Below are positions 12,943 through 22,544 of a stretch of 64,000 nt of DNA, one piece after another; the first letter of the stretch is position 1; every line of letters starts with the position of its first letter. The stretch is from sequence record PX068455.1; one strand, given 5' to 3'. The translations under genes were made by a program, and so were the position numbers. The notes beneath the pieces are model-generated. The model saw only the letters and a list, made by a program, of their open reading frames with translations. It ran no database searches and was not told where the DNA came from. Source of the stretch: a phage.

Positions 12943-13021
12943 GTGCCTTCATAAATTGTCCTACCCTATGTGATTACCCACCCTGAACAAAATACCTCTC
13001 CAAAATCGTTTAAAATTAAGC

Positions 13022-13050
13022 TTGACCCCAACATCAGATCTATGTATGAT
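13022..13050 (+). promoter_or_regulatory. sigma70-like promoter (TTGACC-17-TATGAT)
   Basis: -35 at 13022-13027, -10 at 13045-13050; followed by GGAG RBS and ATG at 13081. Confidence 0.45.
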
Positions 13051-13080
13051 TACCTCACCAACCAAACAGAGGAGATCGTC

Positions 13081-13488
13081 ATGAACAATCTTGCAGATGT
13101 AAATGTCGAAATTGTTAAACTAAAGTTCTTGGGCTTTCGAGACCCTTATTCTTTAACAGCTATACTAATGGACACTCACTTCACACCAGGTAAAGAGTAC
13201 ACAGCCTTCCGTTATATTTGTGGAGATCACGAATCAGCTTATAGTGTGAATACAAACCTCGGCGAGGGATATTTCATCAGAGATATCACAGATCACTTAT
13301 GGGGAATGTGGGAGTTGGTGGAAGAAGAGAATAAATCCCTTCCTAAAGAGATTTGGGTGCACACCTTCCACACAGGTAAGTTTGGAGGTACGGAACATAA
13401 GTCTATCCACTATGATGAAGAAAGTGCCATCAAACAACAAGCTGTGCTTGGTGGATCTGTAGAAAAATTTTTTAAATGCGAGGACTGA
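13081..13488 (+). CDS. hypothetical protein
   Basis: Track ORF 12970..13488; internal ATG at 13081 (MNNLADVNV) has a promoter and RBS, so the shorter form is preferred. Confidence 0.4.
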   Translation: MNNLADVNVEIVKLKFLGFRDPYSLTAILMDTHFTPGKEYTAFRYICGDHESAYSVNTNLGEGYFIRDITDHLWGMWELVEEENKSLPKEIWVHTFHTGKFGGTEHKSIHYDEESAIKQQAVLGGSVEKFFKCED

Positions 13489-13491
13489 GAA

Positions 13492-13692
13492 ATGGCTGAT
13501 TTTTGTAAAGATTGCTCTGAAGAGTTGTTTGGCTTTGACTGCAAAGATTTGGAAGGTCTGATCACTGAGGATCAGTGGAAGGAAGGCTATGCAGCACCTG
13601 TTATTTGTGAAGGTTGTGGCTATACCTATGTTGACCATAAAGGTAAGCGCGTCAAGCCGTCTGAAGATGGGGCATGTTGGGAGTATTACTAA
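13492..13692 (+). CDS. small Cys-containing protein (zinc-ribbon-like)
   Basis: 66 aa; CKDC...CEGCG pairs. Confidence 0.35.
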   Translation: MADFCKDCSEELFGFDCKDLEGLITEDQWKEGYAAPVICEGCGYTYVDHKGKRVKPSEDGACWEYY

Positions 13693-13700
13693 CTATAAAA

Positions 13701-13730
13701 AGAAAGGGGCCGTTTGGCCCCTTTTTATTT
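13701..13730. terminator. bidirectional intrinsic terminator between convergent blocks
   Basis: AGGGGCC-GTTT-GGCCCCT hairpin flanked by T-runs on both strands, between stop 13692 (+) and stop 13739 (-). Confidence 0.65.
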
Positions 13731-13738
13731 ACCCCTTG

Positions 13739-16700
13739 TTAACGAGAAAAGGTTGCGTAGGCTTCTAGACGATACTGCTGGTCACCAGGGAACATAACAC
13801 CTATAGAGGCTGTCCCTAGAATCCTGCCTTCCCTTCCAGACTCCATTCTGAACCCTACCCATCCTGAACTCCTTGCAGCCTCGATGTTGTCGCTATACCC
13901 GAAAGTGGCAAGATCGTCAACACCAGCCCCAAACAGCAACTGAAGCTGACTTCTCGGAAGCCCTATAATTTCAGGAATATACGCACCAAAGTACACCATC
14001 TGCCCTACCTTAGGACCGCTGCCGTACTCCATCGGTTTGCTTGTAGAGAAAGTCTTCATACCAGAAGTACCTGCCGGATTAGGGTATGCCCCGTTTGTTG
14101 CTGTACCTATCCACATTCTCCACTGTGGTGCCATCTGTTTAACAGTAAAAGATGTTGAGGACGTTTTGCGGCCTGCATCATCTGTAACTACAAACTTTAT
14201 GGTGACATTCCCAGTAGCTTTAAATGTTACCAGTCCTGTGGTAGCATCCACTGTTGCAATGTTGGTATTGCTACTTTCCCAAGTCTTTCTAATCCCAGAT
14301 ACGTTGGAAGGGGTAATAGAAGGTTCCTGCATCTGCAGTTTACCGCCCACAATCCCTATGCCGTTGCCAGGATTATACAGTGCACCAACCTCGTCTATAA
14401 TGTTCCCTGCTTTGAGACTATACTTCCTTGAGAAATTGTAGGTTCCGTTATAAGTGTGTGTCCCTGAGAAGGTGACATCTGCCTTCCCGTAAGAGATGCA
14501 AACCAACGCATACTTCCTGTCAGGCAACGTTTCTCCAGTCTCTGGGTGAGTTTTACCTACCTGGAACACACTCGGGTCAGTAGAGTCGTGACTATCACTA
14601 ACGGAGCTTGGACCGCCCATCAACTGTGACAAACAATTCCTTACCCATGTCCAGTTATTATCGCTGGAGAAGTCCACAGTCAAATCAAACACAACCCACT
14701 CATTTGGCTTCCACACAGGTGTTGTAATGGACTTGCCTACACCACCTCCTTGGAGTGTTGCCGACTGTTCAGTGATCAGGGCCGCATAGGCCAGAGTTCC
14801 TAAACTCAGAGTCTGGCTTGCTGTCCTCACTACCTTAGAATCAGCATCTGTGAAGTTGTTGATGATTTGGAATGTGCCATAAGTGTTTTTACAGGTAATT
14901 CTGGCGTTCAGTGTGTCAATCTTCCTCACATCTGCCATAGCAGTGTTAGACACAGAGAAGTCAGAAGCTTTAGCTGAGTTTGCCGCAACAGCAGGATCAA
15001 CGTTAAGAGTTGCGTTGAACTGACAAGCAGGAGTAACCAGTAGCTTGTTATCACCTATTTGCTTCCATGAAACACTTTGAACAGGGAGATTCCATTTAAT
15101 ACCTGAGAAAACCTTAGCAACCCTTGGCCCCAAAGCTCCAGTCCTGTTGTCTTTACAGCACATAGACATGGTGATCGTTGACGGAGTGGCCTGACCAAAT
15201 AATTGCTGTGCTTTTGCAGAGGACATAGTGTAGAAATTGTCCTTAACAAACTCATCAGCAGCTAAAGATCCATCAGCTCTCCACCACTGAACCTGATACC
15301 CTGTTTTGTCCCAACCACCGACCTGCTTCAAGTCCTCCCAGGAGATTTCCAGATCCCCGGTGGTAGGATTGATTGCAGCAGTTCCTGGTGTTCCAGATGA
15401 CCATATTGGAATATCGAACCACGCTGGTTTAACCGACTGCACTGCGCTGGGACCTATTGCGGCAGCAAGTTGCTGGCCCATCAATACGCGAGCATCTTTC
15501 ACCAGACCCCACTCAATCATAGACCCAGAGTAACCTTCTTTCTTGTAGGCTGAGGATCCGTTCAAATGGATGAGTCGGCTTGTGCCAAAGTTATGTGCTC
15601 CACCACCGTTGTCGTCTGCAAAATTGGTTATGATTCTGTCCCTGATATTTTTCCATGCCCTGCCTCCAATCTCGTAGTCATGGTCATAACATCTTTGCAG
15701 TGTTGTCCAGCAAATGATCGCCATCCTTCTACCATTGCTGAAGCCAAAGGCCTGATCGTTAAGCTCTCTCCACAAGTAGCAGTTGGTGGTCCACATGGCC
15801 CTATGAATGTTAAACCAGTTTATAGATTTGGCTGAGTTGTTCCACTGAGTCCCAGGTAATTCAGGCCATACTGCATTAACCAGCATGTCTTCTGTTCCTG
15901 CATCAACCAAGAACCCTCTCACCTTCTTACCCATGCCTACCCTATCTTTTGCAATCCAACTGCCAAACAATCTCAGTTTTGGACCGTAGACAACATCTTC
16001 CGGATGCTCAAAAGAAATATATTTTAGGTATATTGTAGGGTCACCATAGGTGCCATCACAAACAGCTTTGTGCATGTTCTCACCAAGGTCTAGACGAAGT
16101 CCTGTTACAACTCTAGACGTGTCGGTGAATTTGTCTGTTAAATCAAACTCATACCACCACCAACCTGCACCCAACAATACTTTCTTACAACGCTGTGCAT
16201 CTGTATCAGATATTCTCTTATCGCCTGCAAAAGGTGAGTCAGCAAACTGATAGTGCAGAGCAACCTCAAAAGGATGTGTGGATGTCCCGTTTTCTGCAAG
16301 AACTTGTTTACCTATCAGGTCGCACTTAATGATCATCACAACACGTTTGTATCCGTTTGTTACCGGAATTTGCATGGACATGGATGTCCCATCCATGTTT
16401 GATCTCAGTGCAGTCATGATGATATAAGGGTCAACGGCATTGCCCAAAGTCTCAGGACCGGGGATTATCTTATACTTCTTGACCTGCCCCATGATGTAGT
16501 CACTTGCGTAAGTTGCCTCATTCAAGCAAGATCCTCCACCAGGTAACTCACCAGGTCCCCAGAAAAATGCGCCGTAACAGTTGTAGAACCACTTGTTAGG
16601 ATCGTATTTATTCTTGAAGGTCTGAACCTCGTTGGCCTGTTTTGTCAAGAAAACCTGCGTGTCTGTGAAGATTGCAGGGTTTACTCTCGCCTGTCTTGGA

Positions 16701-19375
16701 GGGTAACCTGTAGTTTGGTTAAACCACAAATTACAAGAGTAATCCCTCATATAGTCATAATCAGAGTATTTGTTTACATCTTCGTTCCAACACATGTTTA
16801 GGTTGGTACCGCCCATGCATACAATATATTCTGCGACATACTTATCACTTCTGGTAGGAATACCTATGAACCATCTGTTAACAGGCTCATCCCAAGCTGT
16901 GCGCTCATCTTTAACGCAGATAGCAATCCAGTCATGTGTTCCTGTTTTCTTGCACACATCTCGCTTCATACCATAGTAGAACTCTTTAGTATTCGGCTCA
17001 GGTGCATTTATCAGGTAACTCCATGCCTGATTTGCATAAGTTCCATTGGTGCGTGGATCATGATCAAAGGCATACATGATGATCCTTTCCCCACCAAGAT
17101 GTTCGCCAAGAGTAACTTTGACATTCACATCGCCGTAACCATTGCGAACAACATCCATATTGTCAATAGAGATGCCTCTGGGAGTGTAGGCAATCTTCAG
17201 CGAGTTATCCTCACTAGTGCCACCAAGTGTAATCCCTATGTTGTTTGTTGTCCCGTCGGCATATCTTACTGTGGCTTCCCAGCGTATTCCGAAATATCCT
17301 GCATCATGGCTAACAATTTTCAGTGTACGAGCACCAGAGTTAGGTTTTCCAGGATCAGGCCAAGGATTTGGATGTTCATGGACAGTCAACGATGTCCCGT
17401 TTTGCTCGTTGACCTGCAACATTTTACCGCCTCTGCCGTTAGGGTTGAACTCCCACAAGGCTTGTGTTTTCACAATATTGTCATACGTGGTACGTCTCTG
17501 ATCGTAGATCTCCTGAGTCACATCGTAGGTTACAGACCCGGCATCCATTCTATGGAGTCGTACTATATACGATGTATCGCCTTCTACAGCAGGTTGAGCT
17601 GCGTTAAGCCCGAAGTATACAGTATCGTTGACATGGAACTGTTTGTTTCTACCGACAGTATGCCACTTGCCGTTGGACGGGTACGCTGGGACGATAGTGT
17701 TCCAGTTCAAAGTCCTTGTTGTGTGGGTTCTGCCTGTGCCATGTTTGTCATGATAGGTTATTTTTACAGAGTACAGTCCACGTCTGTTAACATTTCTGTT
17801 ATATTGGGTAACAACAACTTCGTTGGCCCCGCCGTGGTTCCAGTTGGTGGAGAATTGGTAATTTGCATCTGTAACAACCGTGCCTGCAGCATTTACCAGT
17901 TCAATCTTGTCAATAATGAACGTAGCCCCCTCTGGCTGAGGCTTCAATTTCATCTTGACCGTGTCACCAATGTAAATATTGCTAACGCTGCTAACACCGT
18001 TAACTTCGAAAATATCATCAACACCCCAACTGTCTACTGGGACATTTTTATACCAATTCTCAGGAACCTCTGTGAACCCCTGGCTATTAAGTCTGCCGCC
18101 AAACAGGTTGTTAGATCCTGCAAAACTTCCCCTTGGGATGCCTGACCACCAAAGTTTACCATTAACAACAGTAAAGGTTCCTAAGAAACCTTCTCTGTGG
18201 ATGCCTTGGAAATAAACACTCTCTGTCCAGCTAACTGGCAGGCGTTGCTCAACATATTTAGCTGTAGCAAGAGCTTGATAGTGGATAAAATTAGCCCTAG
18301 GGCTATTGTTTGCAGATTGTGCACCAATATCATTACACAAGTTGCGAGAGAATCCACGATACTGTTTAGTGCCATTATTGAAGAAAATGCCACTTGTGCC
18401 ATATCCACGAGCCATTATCACCTCATGGGTGTAGGTGATATTTAAGGAACGCCATGTGTCATCTCCCCAGACGTCTTGCCCGTAGAATACGTTAACAAGC
18501 TGCTGGTCATTGGGTTTGTGCATCCTCTGTGTGGCAATTATTGCCCCGTTAGGGCCACACATAAACCCTTTCCACTCCTCATCTGCAGGAATGCCCCTCA
18601 AATCGTTACGAGTAATCTGCACAGGGGGCCAAACAAGGTCGTTTCTACTGTTATTTCTCAGAAAGTCGTATCCAGCAATCCAGAAACCCCTAGGACCACC
18701 GAAAATAACAGAATTGTCATGCACCTCGCAGTTGATGCTTGGGTTTTTCCAAGGTCCTGTTTCAGGATTTTCCGATGTCTCACCAATCTTCACAGGGGTT
18801 GCATGCTGATTTTTATCTACATGTAAAGATCCGTAGGTGTTGTTACCAGATCCATACAGGTTAAGTATGCCAGTACCTTCTGCCTCTGCAATAACCCAGA
18901 CAGTGTTGTTAATACCGCCCATCACCTCAATAAGGCGTTCTGGGTGGGTGTCAAGGTGCAATCCTTTAACAATCTGCTCTGGGAGTGGTGTCCACTCGTT
19001 TACGCAAACATCATTACCGCCTGCAGCAGTGGATCCGATAAGACCTGCAGTGCAGCCGATGTAGAAAAACTGGTTATCAAAAGTCCGGATCACAAACGCG
19101 CGGTCTGCTCTCCACACATGATCAACATTCCAGGCTGTTTCGCTCGGATAGTTTATAGGGCTACGATCCCCAGTGCGGCACTCTCCGAACTTGTTATAGC
19201 CGGTAATATTAAGCTGACCATCATCAAAAAGTATAGCTAAGCTATTTACATAGGATACTGTGTTGCTTGTACCATCACTGTTGTCTATTGGGTATGACAG
19301 AACAGCAAGTTCCTTAATTCCACCCCTCTTATCGAGGAAATGACGACCAAGTTTTAGCAAAGGGATTGGAAGCAT
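13739..19375 (-). CDS. giant virion protein (1878 aa), probable tail fibre/tailspike with Ig-like domain
   Basis: Uninterrupted 5.6-kb ORF; Gly/Asn-rich beta-type repeats; Big_2-like Ig segment NVSGIRKTWESSNTNIATVDATTGLVTFKATGNVTIKF near the C-terminus; sits in the tail-fibre cluster. Confidence 0.55.
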   Translation of the reverse strand: MLPIPLLKLGRHFLDKRGGIKELAVLSYPIDNSDGTSNTVSYVNSLAILFDDGQLNITGYNKFGECRTGDRSPINYPSETAWNVDHVWRADRAFVIRTFDNQFFYIGCTAGLIGSTAAGGNDVCVNEWTPLPEQIVKGLHLDTHPERLIEVMGGINNTVWVIAEAEGTGILNLYGSGNNTYGSLHVDKNQHATPVKIGETSENPETGPWKNPSINCEVHDNSVIFGGPRGFWIAGYDFLRNNSRNDLVWPPVQITRNDLRGIPADEEWKGFMCGPNGAIIATQRMHKPNDQQLVNVFYGQDVWGDDTWRSLNITYTHEVIMARGYGTSGIFFNNGTKQYRGFSRNLCNDIGAQSANNSPRANFIHYQALATAKYVEQRLPVSWTESVYFQGIHREGFLGTFTVVNGKLWWSGIPRGSFAGSNNLFGGRLNSQGFTEVPENWYKNVPVDSWGVDDIFEVNGVSSVSNIYIGDTVKMKLKPQPEGATFIIDKIELVNAAGTVVTDANYQFSTNWNHGGANEVVVTQYNRNVNRRGLYSVKITYHDKHGTGRTHTTRTLNWNTIVPAYPSNGKWHTVGRNKQFHVNDTVYFGLNAAQPAVEGDTSYIVRLHRMDAGSVTYDVTQEIYDQRRTTYDNIVKTQALWEFNPNGRGGKMLQVNEQNGTSLTVHEHPNPWPDPGKPNSGARTLKIVSHDAGYFGIRWEATVRYADGTTNNIGITLGGTSEDNSLKIAYTPRGISIDNMDVVRNGYGDVNVKVTLGEHLGGERIIMYAFDHDPRTNGTYANQAWSYLINAPEPNTKEFYYGMKRDVCKKTGTHDWIAICVKDERTAWDEPVNRWFIGIPTRSDKYVAEYIVCMGGTNLNMCWNEDVNKYSDYDYMRDYSCNLWFNQTTGYPPRQARVNPAIFTDTQVFLTKQANEVQTFKNKYDPNKWFYNCYGAFFWGPGELPGGGSCLNEATYASDYIMGQVKKYKIIPGPETLGNAVDPYIIMTALRSNMDGTSMSMQIPVTNGYKRVVMIIKCDLIGKQVLAENGTSTHPFEVALHYQFADSPFAGDKRISDTDAQRCKKVLLGAGWWWYEFDLTDKFTDTSRVVTGLRLDLGENMHKAVCDGTYGDPTIYLKYISFEHPEDVVYGPKLRLFGSWIAKDRVGMGKKVRGFLVDAGTEDMLVNAVWPELPGTQWNNSAKSINWFNIHRAMWTTNCYLWRELNDQAFGFSNGRRMAIICWTTLQRCYDHDYEIGGRAWKNIRDRIITNFADDNGGGAHNFGTSRLIHLNGSSAYKKEGYSGSMIEWGLVKDARVLMGQQLAAAIGPSAVQSVKPAWFDIPIWSSGTPGTAAINPTTGDLEISWEDLKQVGGWDKTGYQVQWWRADGSLAADEFVKDNFYTMSSAKAQQLFGQATPSTITMSMCCKDNRTGALGPRVAKVFSGIKWNLPVQSVSWKQIGDNKLLVTPACQFNATLNVDPAVAANSAKASDFSVSNTAMADVRKIDTLNARITCKNTYGTFQIINNFTDADSKVVRTASQTLSLGTLAYAALITEQSATLQGGGVGKSITTPVWKPNEWVVFDLTVDFSSDNNWTWVRNCLSQLMGGPSSVSDSHDSTDPSVFQVGKTHPETGETLPDRKYALVCISYGKADVTFSGTHTYNGTYNFSRKYSLKAGNIIDEVGALYNPGNGIGIVGGKLQMQEPSITPSNVSGIRKTWESSNTNIATVDATTGLVTFKATGNVTIKFVVTDDAGRKTSSTSFTVKQMAPQWRMWIGTATNGAYPNPAGTSGMKTFSTSKPMEYGSGPKVGQMVYFGAYIPEIIGLPRSQLQLLFGAGVDDLATFGYSDNIEAARSSGWVGFRMESGREGRILGTASIGVMFPGDQQYRLEAYATFSR

Positions 19376-19383
19376 TGTGTTCT

Positions 19384-19416
19384 CCAGATAAGAAAACCGC
19401 CCCGTCAGGAGCGGTT
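19384..19416 (-). terminator. hairpin AACCGC...GCGGUU plus U-rich tract
   Basis: 6-bp stem, 10-nt loop, UUUUCUUAUCU downstream on the minus transcript. Confidence 0.4.
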
Positions 19417-19423
19417 AGATATA

Positions 19424-21169
19424 TTAACGTTGTGCAATTACTACGTCTACGATATCACCAACACCACAATACGTTAATTGCAGCAAGGTAACACTGTTAG
19501 CCTTGTTGTTAATAACAGGTGTTGCCGACAGGATAGCATACTTATCGTGCAAAGTCACGTTGTGACCTACAGCATCCTGAATTACATAGATAACCGCAGT
19601 GAATGGATAAGGTTTATCTTCCGCTGATGTCCCAGGCCACTGTCCTATTGTAAAATCCCCTTTCGCGTGAACAACATACATACTGGCCTGCCCGTTAGGT
19701 GTCCATGTCCCACTGGACGCGTCAACCTCCTCTAAATCAAAATCTACCTTTCCTGCGTGGAAAGTAGGGGCAGTAATGGTTTTACCCGCCTCAATTTCTT
19801 GAGAGGTGGTTATCTTGCCACTGGAGTTAATGCCATTACAGACAAAGTTGACATTAGAGAAGTCAGGCAACCACCCAGTCACCGTGCCGGATATTTCAAG
19901 GTTGTGAACAGAGGTGGTGCCAGTCCCTGCTGCGTTTAAACTGACATCTCCATTTACCTGCAAGTTGCGGGTAACGTTGCAGTTTTCAGAGTTTGCAGTT
20001 GTTGCAGTTAAAGTGGTTGTTGTCAGCTCGGTAATTACACCTTTGTTGGCTGTAAGCCCTTCTCCTTCAAAAGTTGCACGCTCATTGACTCTTAAGGTAT
20101 TCAGAGCTATGTTTTGGATAGAGGCCGTACCTCGAATAACTACAGACCCGCCAATCTCCAAATCGCCATTTATCAATGCATCACCAGTGCTTTCAATATA
20201 GCTAGGATAGATCATGGTGCCATCGACAGAGTATGTTATCCCTGTAACGGTACCTGTCACCTCAAGGTTCTTAACCCTGGTGGTCCCATCGACCTGCAAT
20301 GTCGGTTCGGTTGCTGCCTTCATGGCATTACCACGAATGTACACGTAGTCAAAAAAGTTATTACCCAGACCATCAAAATGCACATCGTTATTATTAGCCA
20401 CTGGTTTCCCAGAAGTTATAGTGTCAGCTATAACCCTGTGGGTGGACACTTCATGAGGTTGCAGCTCTGTACTTCTCCAGTCTGCATGCTTAGGATCGCT
20501 CCACGCAAAAGTAAGTGTAGAAGTATTTGCCGTGAGGATTAGATTCCTAAAGCGTGCAGTAGAATCTGCCCCATTAACAGGTCCATGTAAGGTAAGGGTG
20601 CCACCAACTATAGTGTTAGCGAGTTCTGTAAGACCTTTTACCACCAAAGATCCTACAGTAACTTTCATCCCCTCCATGGCTTTAAATATGCTATCAACAT
20701 AGTCAACAACAAACTCTGTGTTTGCTATGGACTCTGACTTATCGTCCATTGGAGGTGTAGGTACTCGCGGGTCACCTTCGAACCTTGGGCTGTTAAGTTT
20801 TGCGTAGTATTTTGCCATTACTGCAGAGTCGGTGTATAATCTCCAGTTTGGAGATTGTGAAGGATCTGCTGGCATTCTAACCGGGTTAGATTTTGATGCT
20901 GCTGGGGCGTACCACCACTGAGTGCCTGTATCCCCTTTAAACTCATACAACTGGTTAAAAACTGTTGTGGATGCACCATACGCCCAAGGGATTGGTGGCG
21001 TTTTAAAATAAAGGGTGTCAAGCATGGCTTTTCGTACCGTAGGGATAGTGGTCCCATCCTCTACGACAACTTCATCCACAGCGTTACCGTTGACAATCAA
21101 GTGCAAACGTTCAGAATCAACAATTACTTGATCTACCGCCTGCTCGAAGCTTGTCATGTCTTGCGCCAT
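19424..21169 (-). CDS. tail fibre protein
   Basis: 581 aa; N-terminal MAQDMTSFEQAVDQVIVDSERLHLIVNG resembles conserved baseplate-attachment domains of phage tail fibres; Thr/Gly/Asn-rich beta-type body. Confidence 0.55.
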   Translation of the reverse strand: MAQDMTSFEQAVDQVIVDSERLHLIVNGNAVDEVVVEDGTTIPTVRKAMLDTLYFKTPPIPWAYGASTTVFNQLYEFKGDTGTQWWYAPAASKSNPVRMPADPSQSPNWRLYTDSAVMAKYYAKLNSPRFEGDPRVPTPPMDDKSESIANTEFVVDYVDSIFKAMEGMKVTVGSLVVKGLTELANTIVGGTLTLHGPVNGADSTARFRNLILTANTSTLTFAWSDPKHADWRSTELQPHEVSTHRVIADTITSGKPVANNNDVHFDGLGNNFFDYVYIRGNAMKAATEPTLQVDGTTRVKNLEVTGTVTGITYSVDGTMIYPSYIESTGDALINGDLEIGGSVVIRGTASIQNIALNTLRVNERATFEGEGLTANKGVITELTTTTLTATTANSENCNVTRNLQVNGDVSLNAAGTGTTSVHNLEISGTVTGWLPDFSNVNFVCNGINSSGKITTSQEIEAGKTITAPTFHAGKVDFDLEEVDASSGTWTPNGQASMYVVHAKGDFTIGQWPGTSAEDKPYPFTAVIYVIQDAVGHNVTLHDKYAILSATPVINNKANSVTLLQLTYCGVGDIVDVVIAQR

Positions 21170-22503: not shown

Positions 22504-22544
22504 GTTCTCCTGAGAAAATTCCTTAGGACTATTTTAACACTTTA

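What the first reader, a model, noticed from the sequence alone, without database searches (positions are those of the whole stretch)
13739..19375. 1878-aa virion protein with Ig-like domain at the end of the fibre cluster
This single 5.6-kb ORF is the largest gene in the window. It combines Gly/Asn-rich beta-type repeats at the N-terminus with a Big_2-like Ig segment near the C-terminus, and is flanked by terminators at 13701-13730 and 19384-19416. It is a candidate multi-domain depolymerase or adhesin, with no domain confidently identified by eye.
Basis: partly seen in the sequence, partly recalled or inferred. Interest (0 to 1): 0.45.

Follow-up and report, generated by a model that had tools for sequence, protein, structure and literature searches.

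The report
Giant Ig-rich accessory protein of rV5-like phage
This 1878-residue gene is the already catalogued but uncharacterised gp27 of rV5-like coliphages, most likely a dispensable, low-copy adhesin built from an RCC1-like propeller, a string of Ig-like domains and a swappable tip, and nothing found here marks it as a depolymerase.

Summary
An intact 1878-aa ORF (13739-19375, minus strand) is the largest in the window. It has a Big_2 domain at aa 1682-1733 and hairpin terminators on both sides.

The window is a Vequintavirus, 100% identical to phage ECP2303. The gene is the ortholog of rV5 gp27, annotated elsewhere as "structural protein with Ig domain" or "lateral tail fiber protein with intimin domain".

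New here:
- The N-terminal ~450 aa is an RCC1-like beta-propeller. It is the only part shared with the last fibre-cluster gene of related genera.
- The rest is a chain of Ig/FN3-like sandwiches, a CBM-like jelly-roll, a conserved orphan core (aa ~1150-1300), Big_2, and a ~120-aa C-terminal domain with two recombining alleles.
- dN/dS is about 0.08, so the gene is functional in nature.

It is nevertheless dispensable on E. coli K-12 (published transposon data) and disrupted in four sequenced isolates. No catalytic, beta-helix or trimerisation module was found. Published virion mass-spectrometry support is at noise level.

Best reading: a low-copy accessory adhesin, expressed by read-through of a conserved terminator. 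The gene itself is already known and only the domain reading is new, so interest is modest.

The parts
13739..19375 (-). CDS of the 1878-aa protein, ortholog of rV5 gp27 and BASEL basNN_0041
   Evidence: ORF list and translation. 100% identical to ECP2303 'structural protein'. Matches phrog_15684 over its full length. dN/dS 0.08.
19382..19385 (-). Shine-Dalgarno GGAG, 6 nt upstream of the ATG
   Evidence: Sequence read directly. The same GGAG-ATG junction is present in L004 and L002.
19386..19416 (-). Intrinsic terminator (rV5 t028) between gp28 and gp27, directly abutting the RBS. Proposed attenuator of gp27 expression.
   Evidence: Terminator scan. Fold centroid -14.9 kcal/mol; z -3.1 on the -16.3 kcal/mol MFE fold. 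Listed in rV5 Table S4. A hairpin at the same place with a different sequence occurs in a 45%-identical relative and in Phapecoctavirus ESCO5. No late-promoter motif lies between it and the ATG.
18011..19375 (-). aa 1-455: RCC1-like beta-propeller, the conserved N-terminal module and putative virion-docking domain
16826..18010 (-). aa 456-850: array of Ig/FN3-like beta-sandwich domains
15476..15928 (-). aa ~1150-1300: conserved orphan core of unknown fold, with many invariant W/C/E/D/H/R residues
   Evidence: An island of high conservation in the otherwise variable C-terminal half. AF2 pLDDT 22-38, predicted helical. No hit in Pfam, PHROGs or PDB. Its N-terminal third (aa 1150-1200) had no relative outside the family among 1.84 billion representatives; aa 1201-1300 were covered only by the word-indexed search.
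14366..15370 (-). aa 1336-1670: FN3-like and further Ig-like beta-sandwich domains
14105..14365 (-). aa 1671-1757: Big_2 (intimin-type) Ig-like domain
13742..14104 (-). aa 1758-1878: variable C-terminal tip domain with two alleles exchanged by recombination
   Evidence: Allele A (ends ATFSR) and allele B (ends TNFPS) switch exactly after 'FTVKQM.PQW'. P0006 is identical to the window upstream of that point and carries allele B downstream. 38 of 113 phage records lose megablast similarity over 13739-14119. Identity over the last 289 aa splits into >=90% and 78-83% classes. dN reaches 0.30 and dS is saturated. P0027 and P0028 lack aa 1657-1878 altogether.
13693..13724 (.). Bidirectional intrinsic terminator (rV5 t027/t026) closing the convergent transcription units
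   Evidence: Terminator scan. Folds at -18.7 kcal/mol on the minus strand and -19.6 on the plus strand. Listed in rV5 Table S4 and annotated in DQ832317.

Best explanation
The gene encodes an accessory adhesin carried on the virion surface of rV5-like (Vequintavirus) phages. It is probably not a canonical trimeric fibre.

Proposed mechanism:
1. The N-terminal RCC1-like beta-propeller (aa 1-~450) docks the protein onto the tail, baseplate or fibre apparatus. It is the one module conserved across genera.
2. A long beads-on-a-string arm projects outward. It has at least seven Ig/FN3-like sandwiches, a CBM-like jelly-roll and a conserved orphan core.
3. The Big_2 domain and the ~120-aa C-terminal tip contact a variable surface glycan on some hosts, or on the host's environment. 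The tip is exchanged between phages by recombination at the domain boundary.
4. The result is better reversible adsorption on those hosts, without being needed on E. coli K-12.
5. The gene has no promoter of its own and sits behind an intrinsic terminator, so it is made by read-through in small amounts.

Shown here or in print: the ORF, the domain order, N-terminal sharing, the conservation gradient, allele exchange, purifying selection, dispensability, and the terminator.

Inferred: virion attachment, monomeric state, glycan binding, and low copy number.
For: Position: it is the last gene of the late tail/fibre block. The same synteny holds in a 45%-identical relative and, for the N-terminal homolog, in Phapecoctavirus.

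Modularity typical of receptor-binding proteins:
- Only aa 1-197 (plus ~400-450) are shared across genera, while the C-termini differ. ESCO5 gp226 has propeller + 2 Big_2 + an LRR tip, and the region after aa 584 varies among its close relatives.
- Identity to the 56% relative falls from 50-84% (aa 1-750) to 16-46% (aa 1300-1878).

The tip domain has two alleles with a recombination junction at the Big_2 boundary.

Folds:
- RCC1-like propeller.
- Ig/FN3 arrays, Big_2 and a CBM/lectin-like jelly-roll.

RCC1-type proteins of phrog_4219, which ESCO5 gp226 matches at E 5.5e-34, are abundant MS-confirmed virion proteins in the related phage W70 (PMC11370258).

The gene is functional in nature, with dN/dS 0.04-0.15 per segment.

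It is dispensable. bas54_0041, verified here as the ortholog, tolerates transposon insertions on K-12 and still yields infective virions (bioRxiv 10.1101/2025.11.20.689424). Disrupted copies occur in phita32, naswa, ime and APECc02.

The terminator-then-RBS junction is conserved in three lineages with different hairpin sequences. No late promoter motif lies nearer than the one upstream of gp30.
Against: - Virion presence is not established. The rV5 MS hit is 3 poor peptides at 3.1% coverage, ranked beside rIIA.
- Cryo-EM of Bas49 and Bas54 resolved only three fibres out of nine annotated fibre genes, and this protein is not discussed there (PMC12143355).
- The AF2 models are poor (mean pLDDT 46 and 55), because the family has only about 15 diverse members. 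Domain counts are therefore approximate and the aa 1126-1332 region is unresolved.
- Oligomeric state was not tested.
- No host on which the gene matters has been identified.
Confidence: 0.5

Rival explanations
1. It is a canonical trimeric lateral tail fibre or tailspike, as in the BASEL annotation 'lateral tail fiber protein with intimin domain'. Its unresolved central region carries a glycan-degrading (depolymerase) activity, making it one blade of the Vequintavirus 'Swiss army knife'.
For: - It lies in the fibre cluster directly after gp28, a phiTE-gp241-type tail fibre protein (phrog_4549, PF26208/PF26209).
- BASEL counts it as the last large lateral tail fibre gene, with moderate allelic variation.
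- The conserved core at aa ~1150-1300, with many invariant W/E/D/H/C/R residues, could be an active site.
- A CBM-like module often accompanies glycanases.
Against: - No beta-helix, coiled coil, triple-beta-helix, peptidase-S74 chaperone or known fibre N-terminal adaptor appears in any search.
- No catalytic fold or family was detected.
- The N-terminus is an RCC1-like propeller, a fold that is (from general knowledge, not tested here) normally monomeric.
- No chaperone gene follows it.
- Ig/FN3 arrays are typical of monomeric adhesins.
Confidence: 0.15
2. It is a decoration protein of the capsid or tail tube, Hoc-like. Its Ig-like domains tether the phage to mucus or other environmental glycans rather than to the host cell.
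For: - The C-terminal 290 aa match phrog_215, 'structural protein with Ig domain', filed under head and packaging (E 1.8e-46).
- Foldseek against viral models returns Ig-bearing major tail, head and Hoc-like proteins.
- It is dispensable in the laboratory, as Hoc is.
Against: - The gene sits at the end of the fibre cluster, not in the head or tube modules.
- Its conserved N-terminal module belongs to a PHROG annotated 'tail protein' (phrog_11922).
- Terminator-attenuated expression argues against the high copy number of a lattice decoration.
- Two recombining tip alleles look like host-range variation.
Confidence: 0.15
3. It is not part of the virion. It is a late-expressed protein that is released at lysis or acts in the cell or at the envelope, for example a surface-binding factor that prevents progeny from sticking to debris.
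For: - Proteomic support for virion presence is at noise level.
- It was not seen by cryo-EM.
- Infective virions form without it.
- A terminator separates it from the structural genes.
Against: - There is no signal peptide or membrane segment in the N-terminal sequence (judged by eye, no predictor was run).
- It is co-oriented with and directly abuts the late structural operon, with no promoter of its own.
- Proteins of the RCC1-type PHROG matched by its cross-genus homolog are abundant in W70 virions.
- The conservation gradient and tip exchange mirror receptor-binding proteins.
Confidence: 0.1

Closest known systems
rV5 gp27 and its Vequintavirus orthologs (ECP2303 'structural protein'; Murica and FFH2 'Ig-like domain-containing protein'; BASEL basNN_0041 'lateral tail fiber protein with intimin domain'; phrog_15684)
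   Same: This is the same gene. It is 100% identical to ECP2303 and 88-98% identical at the amino-acid level across about 110 phage records, with the same length, position and flanking terminators.
   Different: There is no difference in sequence class. The existing annotations mention only the Big_2/intimin-like domain. The RCC1-like propeller, the CBM-like module, the orphan core and the two-allele tip are not annotated.
Last gene of the fibre cluster in Phapecoctavirus and relatives (ESCO5 gp226, 890 aa, phrog_11922 'tail protein'; GAP31 and PVP-SE1 gp40 homologs)
   Same: - Homologous N-terminal RCC1-like propeller, starting with the same M-(L/F)-P-I-P motif (31-41% identity over aa 1-197).
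- Big_2 domains downstream.
- Same synteny.
- A terminator directly upstream of the RBS.
   Different: - It is about half the size.
- It lacks the whole aa 450-1600 region.
- The tip is an LRR or another module instead of the Vequintavirus C-terminal domain.
Stand-alone RCC1-like virion proteins of Vequintavirinae (W70_237-239, phrog_4219, ~40 kDa)
   Same: They share the RCC1-type propeller. ESCO5 gp226 matches phrog_4219 at E 5.5e-34. They are demonstrated virion components with 141-233 spectra.
   Different: - They are single-domain proteins encoded elsewhere in the genome.
- gp27 itself does not hit phrog_4219 directly.
- Their location and role in the virion are also unknown.
Ig-like domain display on phage structural proteins (T4 Hoc, lambda gpV C-terminal domain, T5 pb6; Fraser et al. 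2006, cited from memory and from the reference list seen)
   Different: In those proteins, one to four Ig domains are appended to a lattice-forming protein. Here a 208-kDa stand-alone protein has its own propeller anchor and many non-Ig modules.
Bacterial intimin/invasin and other Ig-array surface adhesins (intimin, LigB, SbsC and Sap S-layer proteins)
   Same: It has a rod of tandem Ig-like domains ending in a ligand-binding tip. Local Big_2 similarity to intimin D2/D3 is seen.
   Different: It has no beta-barrel or LysM anchor and no C-type-lectin tip. The NCBIfam intimin score is 22.6 bits against a cut-off of 1400. It is not a family member.

Membership tests
Vequintavirus gp27 orthologous group (phrog_15684) | Full-length collinear match to the family profile, with the same genomic position | tested here: met
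   phrog_15684 matches aa 1-1878 of 1878, 4500 bits. 100% DNA identity to ECP2303, and 109 records cover at least 80% of the 7-kb query. Synteny with rV5, CarlMeissner and MaxBurger.
Big_2 (PF02368) Ig-like domain proteins | Pfam Big_2 HMM score above the gathering threshold | tested here: met
RCC1-like domain (RLD) beta-propellers | RCC1 repeat or RLD HMM match above threshold in the protein itself | tested here: not met
   gp27 gives no RCC1 or RLD hit at E<=1. 12 of 16 family members give sub-threshold PF25390 hits (best E 1e-4; cut-off 150 bits) and 4 of 16 give weak RCC1 hits.
RCC1-like domain (RLD) beta-propellers | Demonstrable homology to a protein that passes the RCC1 threshold | tested here: met
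   gp27 aa 1-198 match the ESCO5-type proteins at E 1e-22 by phmmer. ESCO5 gp226 scores 24.2 bits on RCC1 PF00415 (GA 21.7), E 8e-11 on PF25390, and E 5.5e-34 on phrog_4219. It also hits RPGR, UVR8 and HERC2 in the PDB.
RCC1-like domain (RLD) beta-propellers | Seven-bladed propeller fold | tested here: inconclusive
Canonical trimeric tail fibres and tailspikes | A trimerisation or fibre module: coiled coil, beta-helix, triple beta-helix, a C-terminal S74 chaperone domain, or an adjacent assembly chaperone | tested here: not met
Canonical trimeric tail fibres and tailspikes | Trimeric assembly attached to the baseplate in the virion | not testable with these tools
   This needs multimer modelling, biophysics, or cryo-EM of wild-type against knockout particles. 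Published maps did not assign this protein.
Phage depolymerases | A recognisable glycoside hydrolase, lyase or esterase catalytic domain | tested here: not met
   No catalytic family or fold appears in any search. aa 1126-1332 remain unmodelled, so absence is not proven.
Intimin/invasin family | N-terminal outer-membrane beta-barrel, a Big array and a lectin-like tip, with a full-length NCBIfam intimin match | tested here: not met
   NF033627 scores 22.6 bits against a cut-off of 1400 and covers only aa 1696-1734. The N-terminus is an RCC1-like propeller.
Virion structural proteins | Reproducible detection in purified particles | tested here: inconclusive
   In rV5 Table S5, gp27 has 3 peptides, 9 spectra and 3.1% coverage. 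The peptides are semi- or non-tryptic with mass errors of 1.2-1.9 Da, and it is listed beside rIIA. A later comparison table counts it as a virion protein.

The most novel reading that the evidence does not exclude
gp27 and the shorter RCC1-propeller proteins of related genera define an undescribed class of phage appendage. This would be a monomeric, propeller-anchored 'string adhesin', present in a few copies and invisible to symmetrised cryo-EM. It would act as an extra, recombination-swappable host- or niche-recognition device. Its orphan conserved core (aa ~1150-1300) would be a new glycan-binding or glycan-modifying fold.
Probability: 0.2. Interest if true: 0.55.

Novelty: already known. 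Interest (0 to 1): 0.3.

Why it matters
rV5-like phages are among the most frequently isolated coliphages and are candidates for therapy and biocontrol. It is still unclear which genes build their multiple fibres (BASEL paper).

gp27 is their largest protein. It is under strong purifying selection, yet it is dispensable on K-12.

If it is a propeller-anchored accessory adhesin with a swappable tip, two things follow:
- It is a natural handle for host-range engineering.
- It offers a test case for why phages keep very large non-essential surface proteins.

The practical gain from this analysis is a domain map and a set of cheap experiments. It is not a new system.

Tried and rejected
- **Word-indexed homolog searches with single segments** returned only near-identical fragments. 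A profile query was needed to recover about 15 diverse full-length relatives.
- **Exhaustive HMMER of aa 1-1200** against 1.84 billion representatives gave 9 hits. Only one was full-length, so aa 200-1200 are family-restricted.
- **PDB searches** by sequence and by family profile gave nothing beyond Big_2/intimin-level hits.
- **AF2 with the shallow alignment** gave mean pLDDT 46 and 55. aa 200-400, 564-733, 843-940 and 1126-1332 are unusable, and both AF2 jobs are spent.
- **Foldseek against viral models** returned only generic Ig-array proteins at TM about 0.1.
- **Self-BLAST** found no internal sequence repeats.
- **tblastn of gp27 against the rest of the window** found no paralog or shared adaptor domain.
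- **A dedicated promoter for gp27** was looked for and not found. There is no sigma-70-like site and no late motif TGGTAAAATA between gp28 and the ATG.
- **The 403-aa antisense ORF at 16934-18145** was rejected. It lies in the in-register antisense frame and is not conserved in orthologs.
- **Membership of the intimin family** was rejected.
- **Papers on phi92, phiTE, RBPseg and CB7** contain no assignment for this protein. Schwarzer 2012 and Santos 2011 are not held in the library.
Full report
**1. Observation**

The ORF is exactly as described: window 13739..19375, minus strand, ATG start, 1878 codons plus stop, no internal stop. It is the longest ORF in the window; the next longest are 1279 and 1266 aa. 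A GGAG Shine-Dalgarno sits 6 nt before the ATG.

Pfam finds one domain above threshold, Big_2 at aa 1682-1733 (E 4.1e-8, 33.5 bits against 22.8). PDB sequence search finds only intimin Ig domains at the same place (E 0.003).

Both flanking terminators are real hairpin-plus-U-tract sites on the gene's strand:
- Upstream: 19416-19395, centroid -14.9 kcal/mol; z -3.1 refers to the -16.3 kcal/mol minimum-free-energy fold.
- Downstream: 13724-13703, -18.7 kcal/mol. It also reads as a terminator on the plus strand, so it is bidirectional.

The 'Gly/Asn-rich repeats' claim is only partly right. Composition is mildly G/N-rich and self-BLAST shows no sequence repeats.

**2. Identity**

The window is a Vequintavirus (rV5-like myovirus), 100% identical over 7 kb to Escherichia phages ECP2303 and ECP2309. 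It is 93-97% identical to dozens of others.

The gene is the ortholog of rV5 ORF27/gp27: 1878 aa, 208,334 Da, 'conserved hypothetical protein, Big_2' (Kropinski et al. 2013, PMC3606486, Table S3).

Other records name it 'structural protein (with Ig domain)', 'Ig-like domain-containing protein', or, in the BASEL collection, 'lateral tail fiber protein with intimin domain'. Both terminators were published for rV5 as t028 and t027/t026. The object is therefore known, but its function is not.

**3. Context**

It is the last gene of the minus-strand late block running tape measure, baseplate, several fibres, two short tail fibres plus chaperone, gp29, gp28, gp27. Transcription then converges with plus-strand small genes.

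The upstream neighbour gp28 (19424-21169) is a tail-fibre protein of the phiTE-gp241 type (phrog_4549 at E 3e-250; PF26208/PF26209).

No sigma-70-like or rV5 late-promoter motif (TGGTAAAATA) lies between gp28 and the gp27 start. The nearest upstream late motif matching a published rV5 late promoter is at 22530-22539, the equivalent of rV5 P030. A one-mismatch match at 20808-20817, inside gp28, has no rV5 counterpart and I take it as chance. gp27 must therefore be transcribed by read-through of the terminator that abuts its RBS.

That junction of hairpin, then GGAG, then ATG recurs with different hairpin sequences in two other places:
- a 45%-identical relative (L004 9972-9993);
- upstream of the homologous last gene of Phapecoctavirus ESCO5 (L002 11965-11978).

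I take this as a conserved attenuator that sets a low protein dose. That is an inference.

**4. Family and distribution**

tblastn against 50,697 phage records finds the full-length protein only in Vequintavirus: about 110 records, at least 88% identical. In other genera only aa 1-197 match, at 31-41% identity, and always in the last gene of the fibre cluster. These include Phapecoctavirus, for example ESCO5 gp226 (890 aa), GAP31-like phages and PVP-SE1 gp40.

An exhaustive HMMER scan of aa 1-1200 against 1.84 billion representatives gave nine hits. One was full-length (P0007, 56% identity) and the rest were N-terminal only.

A profile search recovered about 15 diverse full-length relatives of 1711-1976 aa and 45-74% identity, on contigs up to 142 kb. 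The most divergent keeps the same synteny.

Two things follow:
- aa ~200-1200 have no detectable relatives outside this family.
- aa 1201-1670 returned none in the less sensitive word-indexed and profile searches.

**5. Domain map**

*(a) aa 1-~455: RCC1-like beta-propeller.* gp27 itself does not reach any RCC1 threshold. The supporting evidence is indirect but convergent:
- Its homolog ESCO5 gp226 does. RCC1 PF00415 scores 24.2 bits against GA 21.7, PF25390 gives E 8e-11, and phrog_4219 'regulator of chromosome condensation' gives E 5.5e-34. It also hits RPGR, UVR8 and HERC2 in the PDB.
- 12 of 16 family members give sub-threshold PF25390 hits.

*(b) aa ~456-850: Ig/FN3-like sandwiches*.

*(d) aa ~1126-1332: unmodelled* (pLDDT 22-38). 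This stretch contains an island of strong conservation at aa ~1150-1300, with many invariant W/C/E/D/H/R residues.

*(e) aa 1336-1670: FN3-like and Ig-like sandwiches*.

*(f) aa 1671-1757: Big_2.*

*(g) aa 1758-1878: a C-terminal domain.*

No beta-helix, coiled coil, S74 chaperone or catalytic family or fold was detected anywhere.

**6. Evolutionary signals**

Identity to the 56% relative is:
- 50-84% over aa 1-750;
- 16-62% over aa 750-1300;
- 16-46% beyond aa 1300.

Among seven close orthologs dN/dS is 0.04-0.15 in every segment where dS could be estimated, and 0.08 overall. The whole protein is therefore under purifying selection. dS ranges from 0.26 to 1.0 between segments, which indicates mosaic recombination.

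The C-terminal domain exists in two alleles, ending ...ATFSR and ...TNFPS. They switch exactly after the Big_2 strand 'FTVKQM.PQW'. APECc02 (P0006) is identical to the window upstream of that point and carries the other allele downstream.

About one third of the phage records carry the second allele. Two relatives lack aa 1657-1878 entirely. An anchor-conserved, tip-variable pattern of this kind is what receptor-binding proteins show.

**7. Functional data from the literature**

- **Dispensability.** HIDEN-SEQ transposon mapping of Bas54 (MaxBurger) lists bas54_0041 among fibre genes that tolerate disruptive insertions. [quoted passage not shown] I verified that bas54_0041 is the ortholog.
- **Disrupted natural copies.** Four sequenced isolates carry disrupted copies. 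phita32 has CAA to TAA at codon 1439. naswa has a 1-nt deletion at codon 762. ime has a 2-nt deletion at codon 1052. APECc02 has a 2956-nt deletion.
- **Weak virion evidence.** rV5 Table S5 lists three semi- or non-tryptic peptides, mass errors of 1.2-1.9 Da and 3.1% coverage. The entry is at the bottom of the list, beside rIIA. A later paper tabulates it as an rV5 virion protein.
- **Related virion proteins.** RCC1-type proteins of phrog_4219 are abundant, well-supported virion proteins of the related phage W70.
- **Cryo-EM.** Work on Bas49 and Bas54 resolved three fibres out of nine annotated fibre genes and does not assign this protein. The 2026 phi92 structure does not help. phi92 gp152 shares only the Ig region of the ESCO5 protein.

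**8. Interpretation**

The most economical reading is a low-copy, non-essential virion adhesin with three parts:
- The RCC1-like propeller, the only cross-genus module, is the docking end.
- The Ig/FN3/CBM string is a flexible arm.
- Big_2 plus the recombining tip is the ligand-contacting end.

Confidence is 0.5. The architecture resembles monomeric bacterial Ig-array adhesins more than trimeric phage fibres.

The rivals are:
- a true trimeric fibre or depolymerase (0.15);
- a Hoc-like decoration for mucus adherence (0.15);
- a non-virion late protein (0.1).

The unresolved conserved core at aa ~1150-1300 is the main unknown. It could hide an enzyme.

**9. Novelty and score**

The gene, its Big_2 domain, its terminators and its dispensability are all in the public record. 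What this analysis adds:
- the RCC1-like propeller assignment;
- the CBM-like module;
- the conservation gradient;
- the two-allele tip with its junction;
- the conserved attenuator;
- a critical reading of the proteomics.

That is useful annotation, not a new kind of system. I class it as 'already known', with interest 0.3. The residual novel reading is a propeller-anchored monomeric adhesin class with a new fold in the core. I give that probability 0.2.

Noticed in passing
window 16934-18145 (+): A 403-aa ORF lies antisense inside gp27, in the in-register antisense frame. There, stops arise only from sense TTA/CTA/TCA codons. gp27 has 33 of these, with a gap between codons 411 and 859. The open stretch is broken in all seven orthologs examined, so it is a chance ORF.
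   Followed up: yes
window 19386-19416; L004 9972-9993; L002 11965-11978: An intrinsic-terminator hairpin directly abuts the RBS of the last fibre-cluster gene. It is conserved in position but not in sequence across Vequintavirus, a 45%-identical relative and Phapecoctavirus ESCO5. This suggests selected attenuation of that gene.
   Followed up: partly
GenBank MG0656xx records matched by window 13000-20000: 15-20 records named 'Campylobacter phage' (host C. jejuni) are 93-97% identical to this E. coli Vequintavirus region. They are probably coliphages carried in those stocks, or mislabelled.
   Followed up: no
P0003, P0032 (relatives of window 18400-19375): A partial protein deposited as Eggerthella lenta (P0003, 97-99% identical) and one deposited as E. 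coli (P0032, 95% identical) match the gp27 N-terminus. They are most likely phage contamination or carry-over in bacterial assemblies.
   Followed up: no
L009 (phita32), L011 (naswa), L012 (ime), L013 (APECc02): Disrupted gp27 alleles occur in four sequenced isolates: nonsense at codon 1439, -1 nt in a G-run at codon 762, -2 nt at codon 1052, and a 2956-nt deletion of codons 431-1416. Some may be sequencing errors. phita32 is recorded with a Klebsiella pneumoniae host.
   Followed up: partly
window, minus strand: 22530, 28861, 34372, 48512, 52033 and others: The rV5 late-promoter core TGGTAAAATA (up to 1 mismatch) occurs 18 times against 5.8 expected. Nearly all copies are on the minus strand, several just upstream of late genes or operons. 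This matches the published rV5 late promoters P030, P036, P040, P051 and P056.
   Followed up: partly
window 19424-21169 (-): The upstream neighbour gp28 (581 aa) belongs to the phiTE gp241 / W70_107 tail-fibre family (phrog_4549, PF26208/PF26209). It is not in the HIDEN-SEQ list of dispensable fibre genes, so it may be essential, unlike gp27.
   Followed up: partly
L002 12001-14673 (ESCO5 gp226): The Phapecoctavirus homolog combines an RCC1-like propeller, two Big_2 domains and a C-terminal leucine-rich-repeat module resembling variable lymphocyte receptors. The region after aa 584 varies among close relatives. It looks like an unannotated modular adhesin.
   Followed up: partly
gene segments of window 13739-19375: Synonymous divergence among seven close orthologs differs about four-fold between segments (dS 0.26 for aa 1336-1670 against 1.0 for aa 1-455) and is saturated in the tip. 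The gene is therefore a recombination mosaic.
   Followed up: partly
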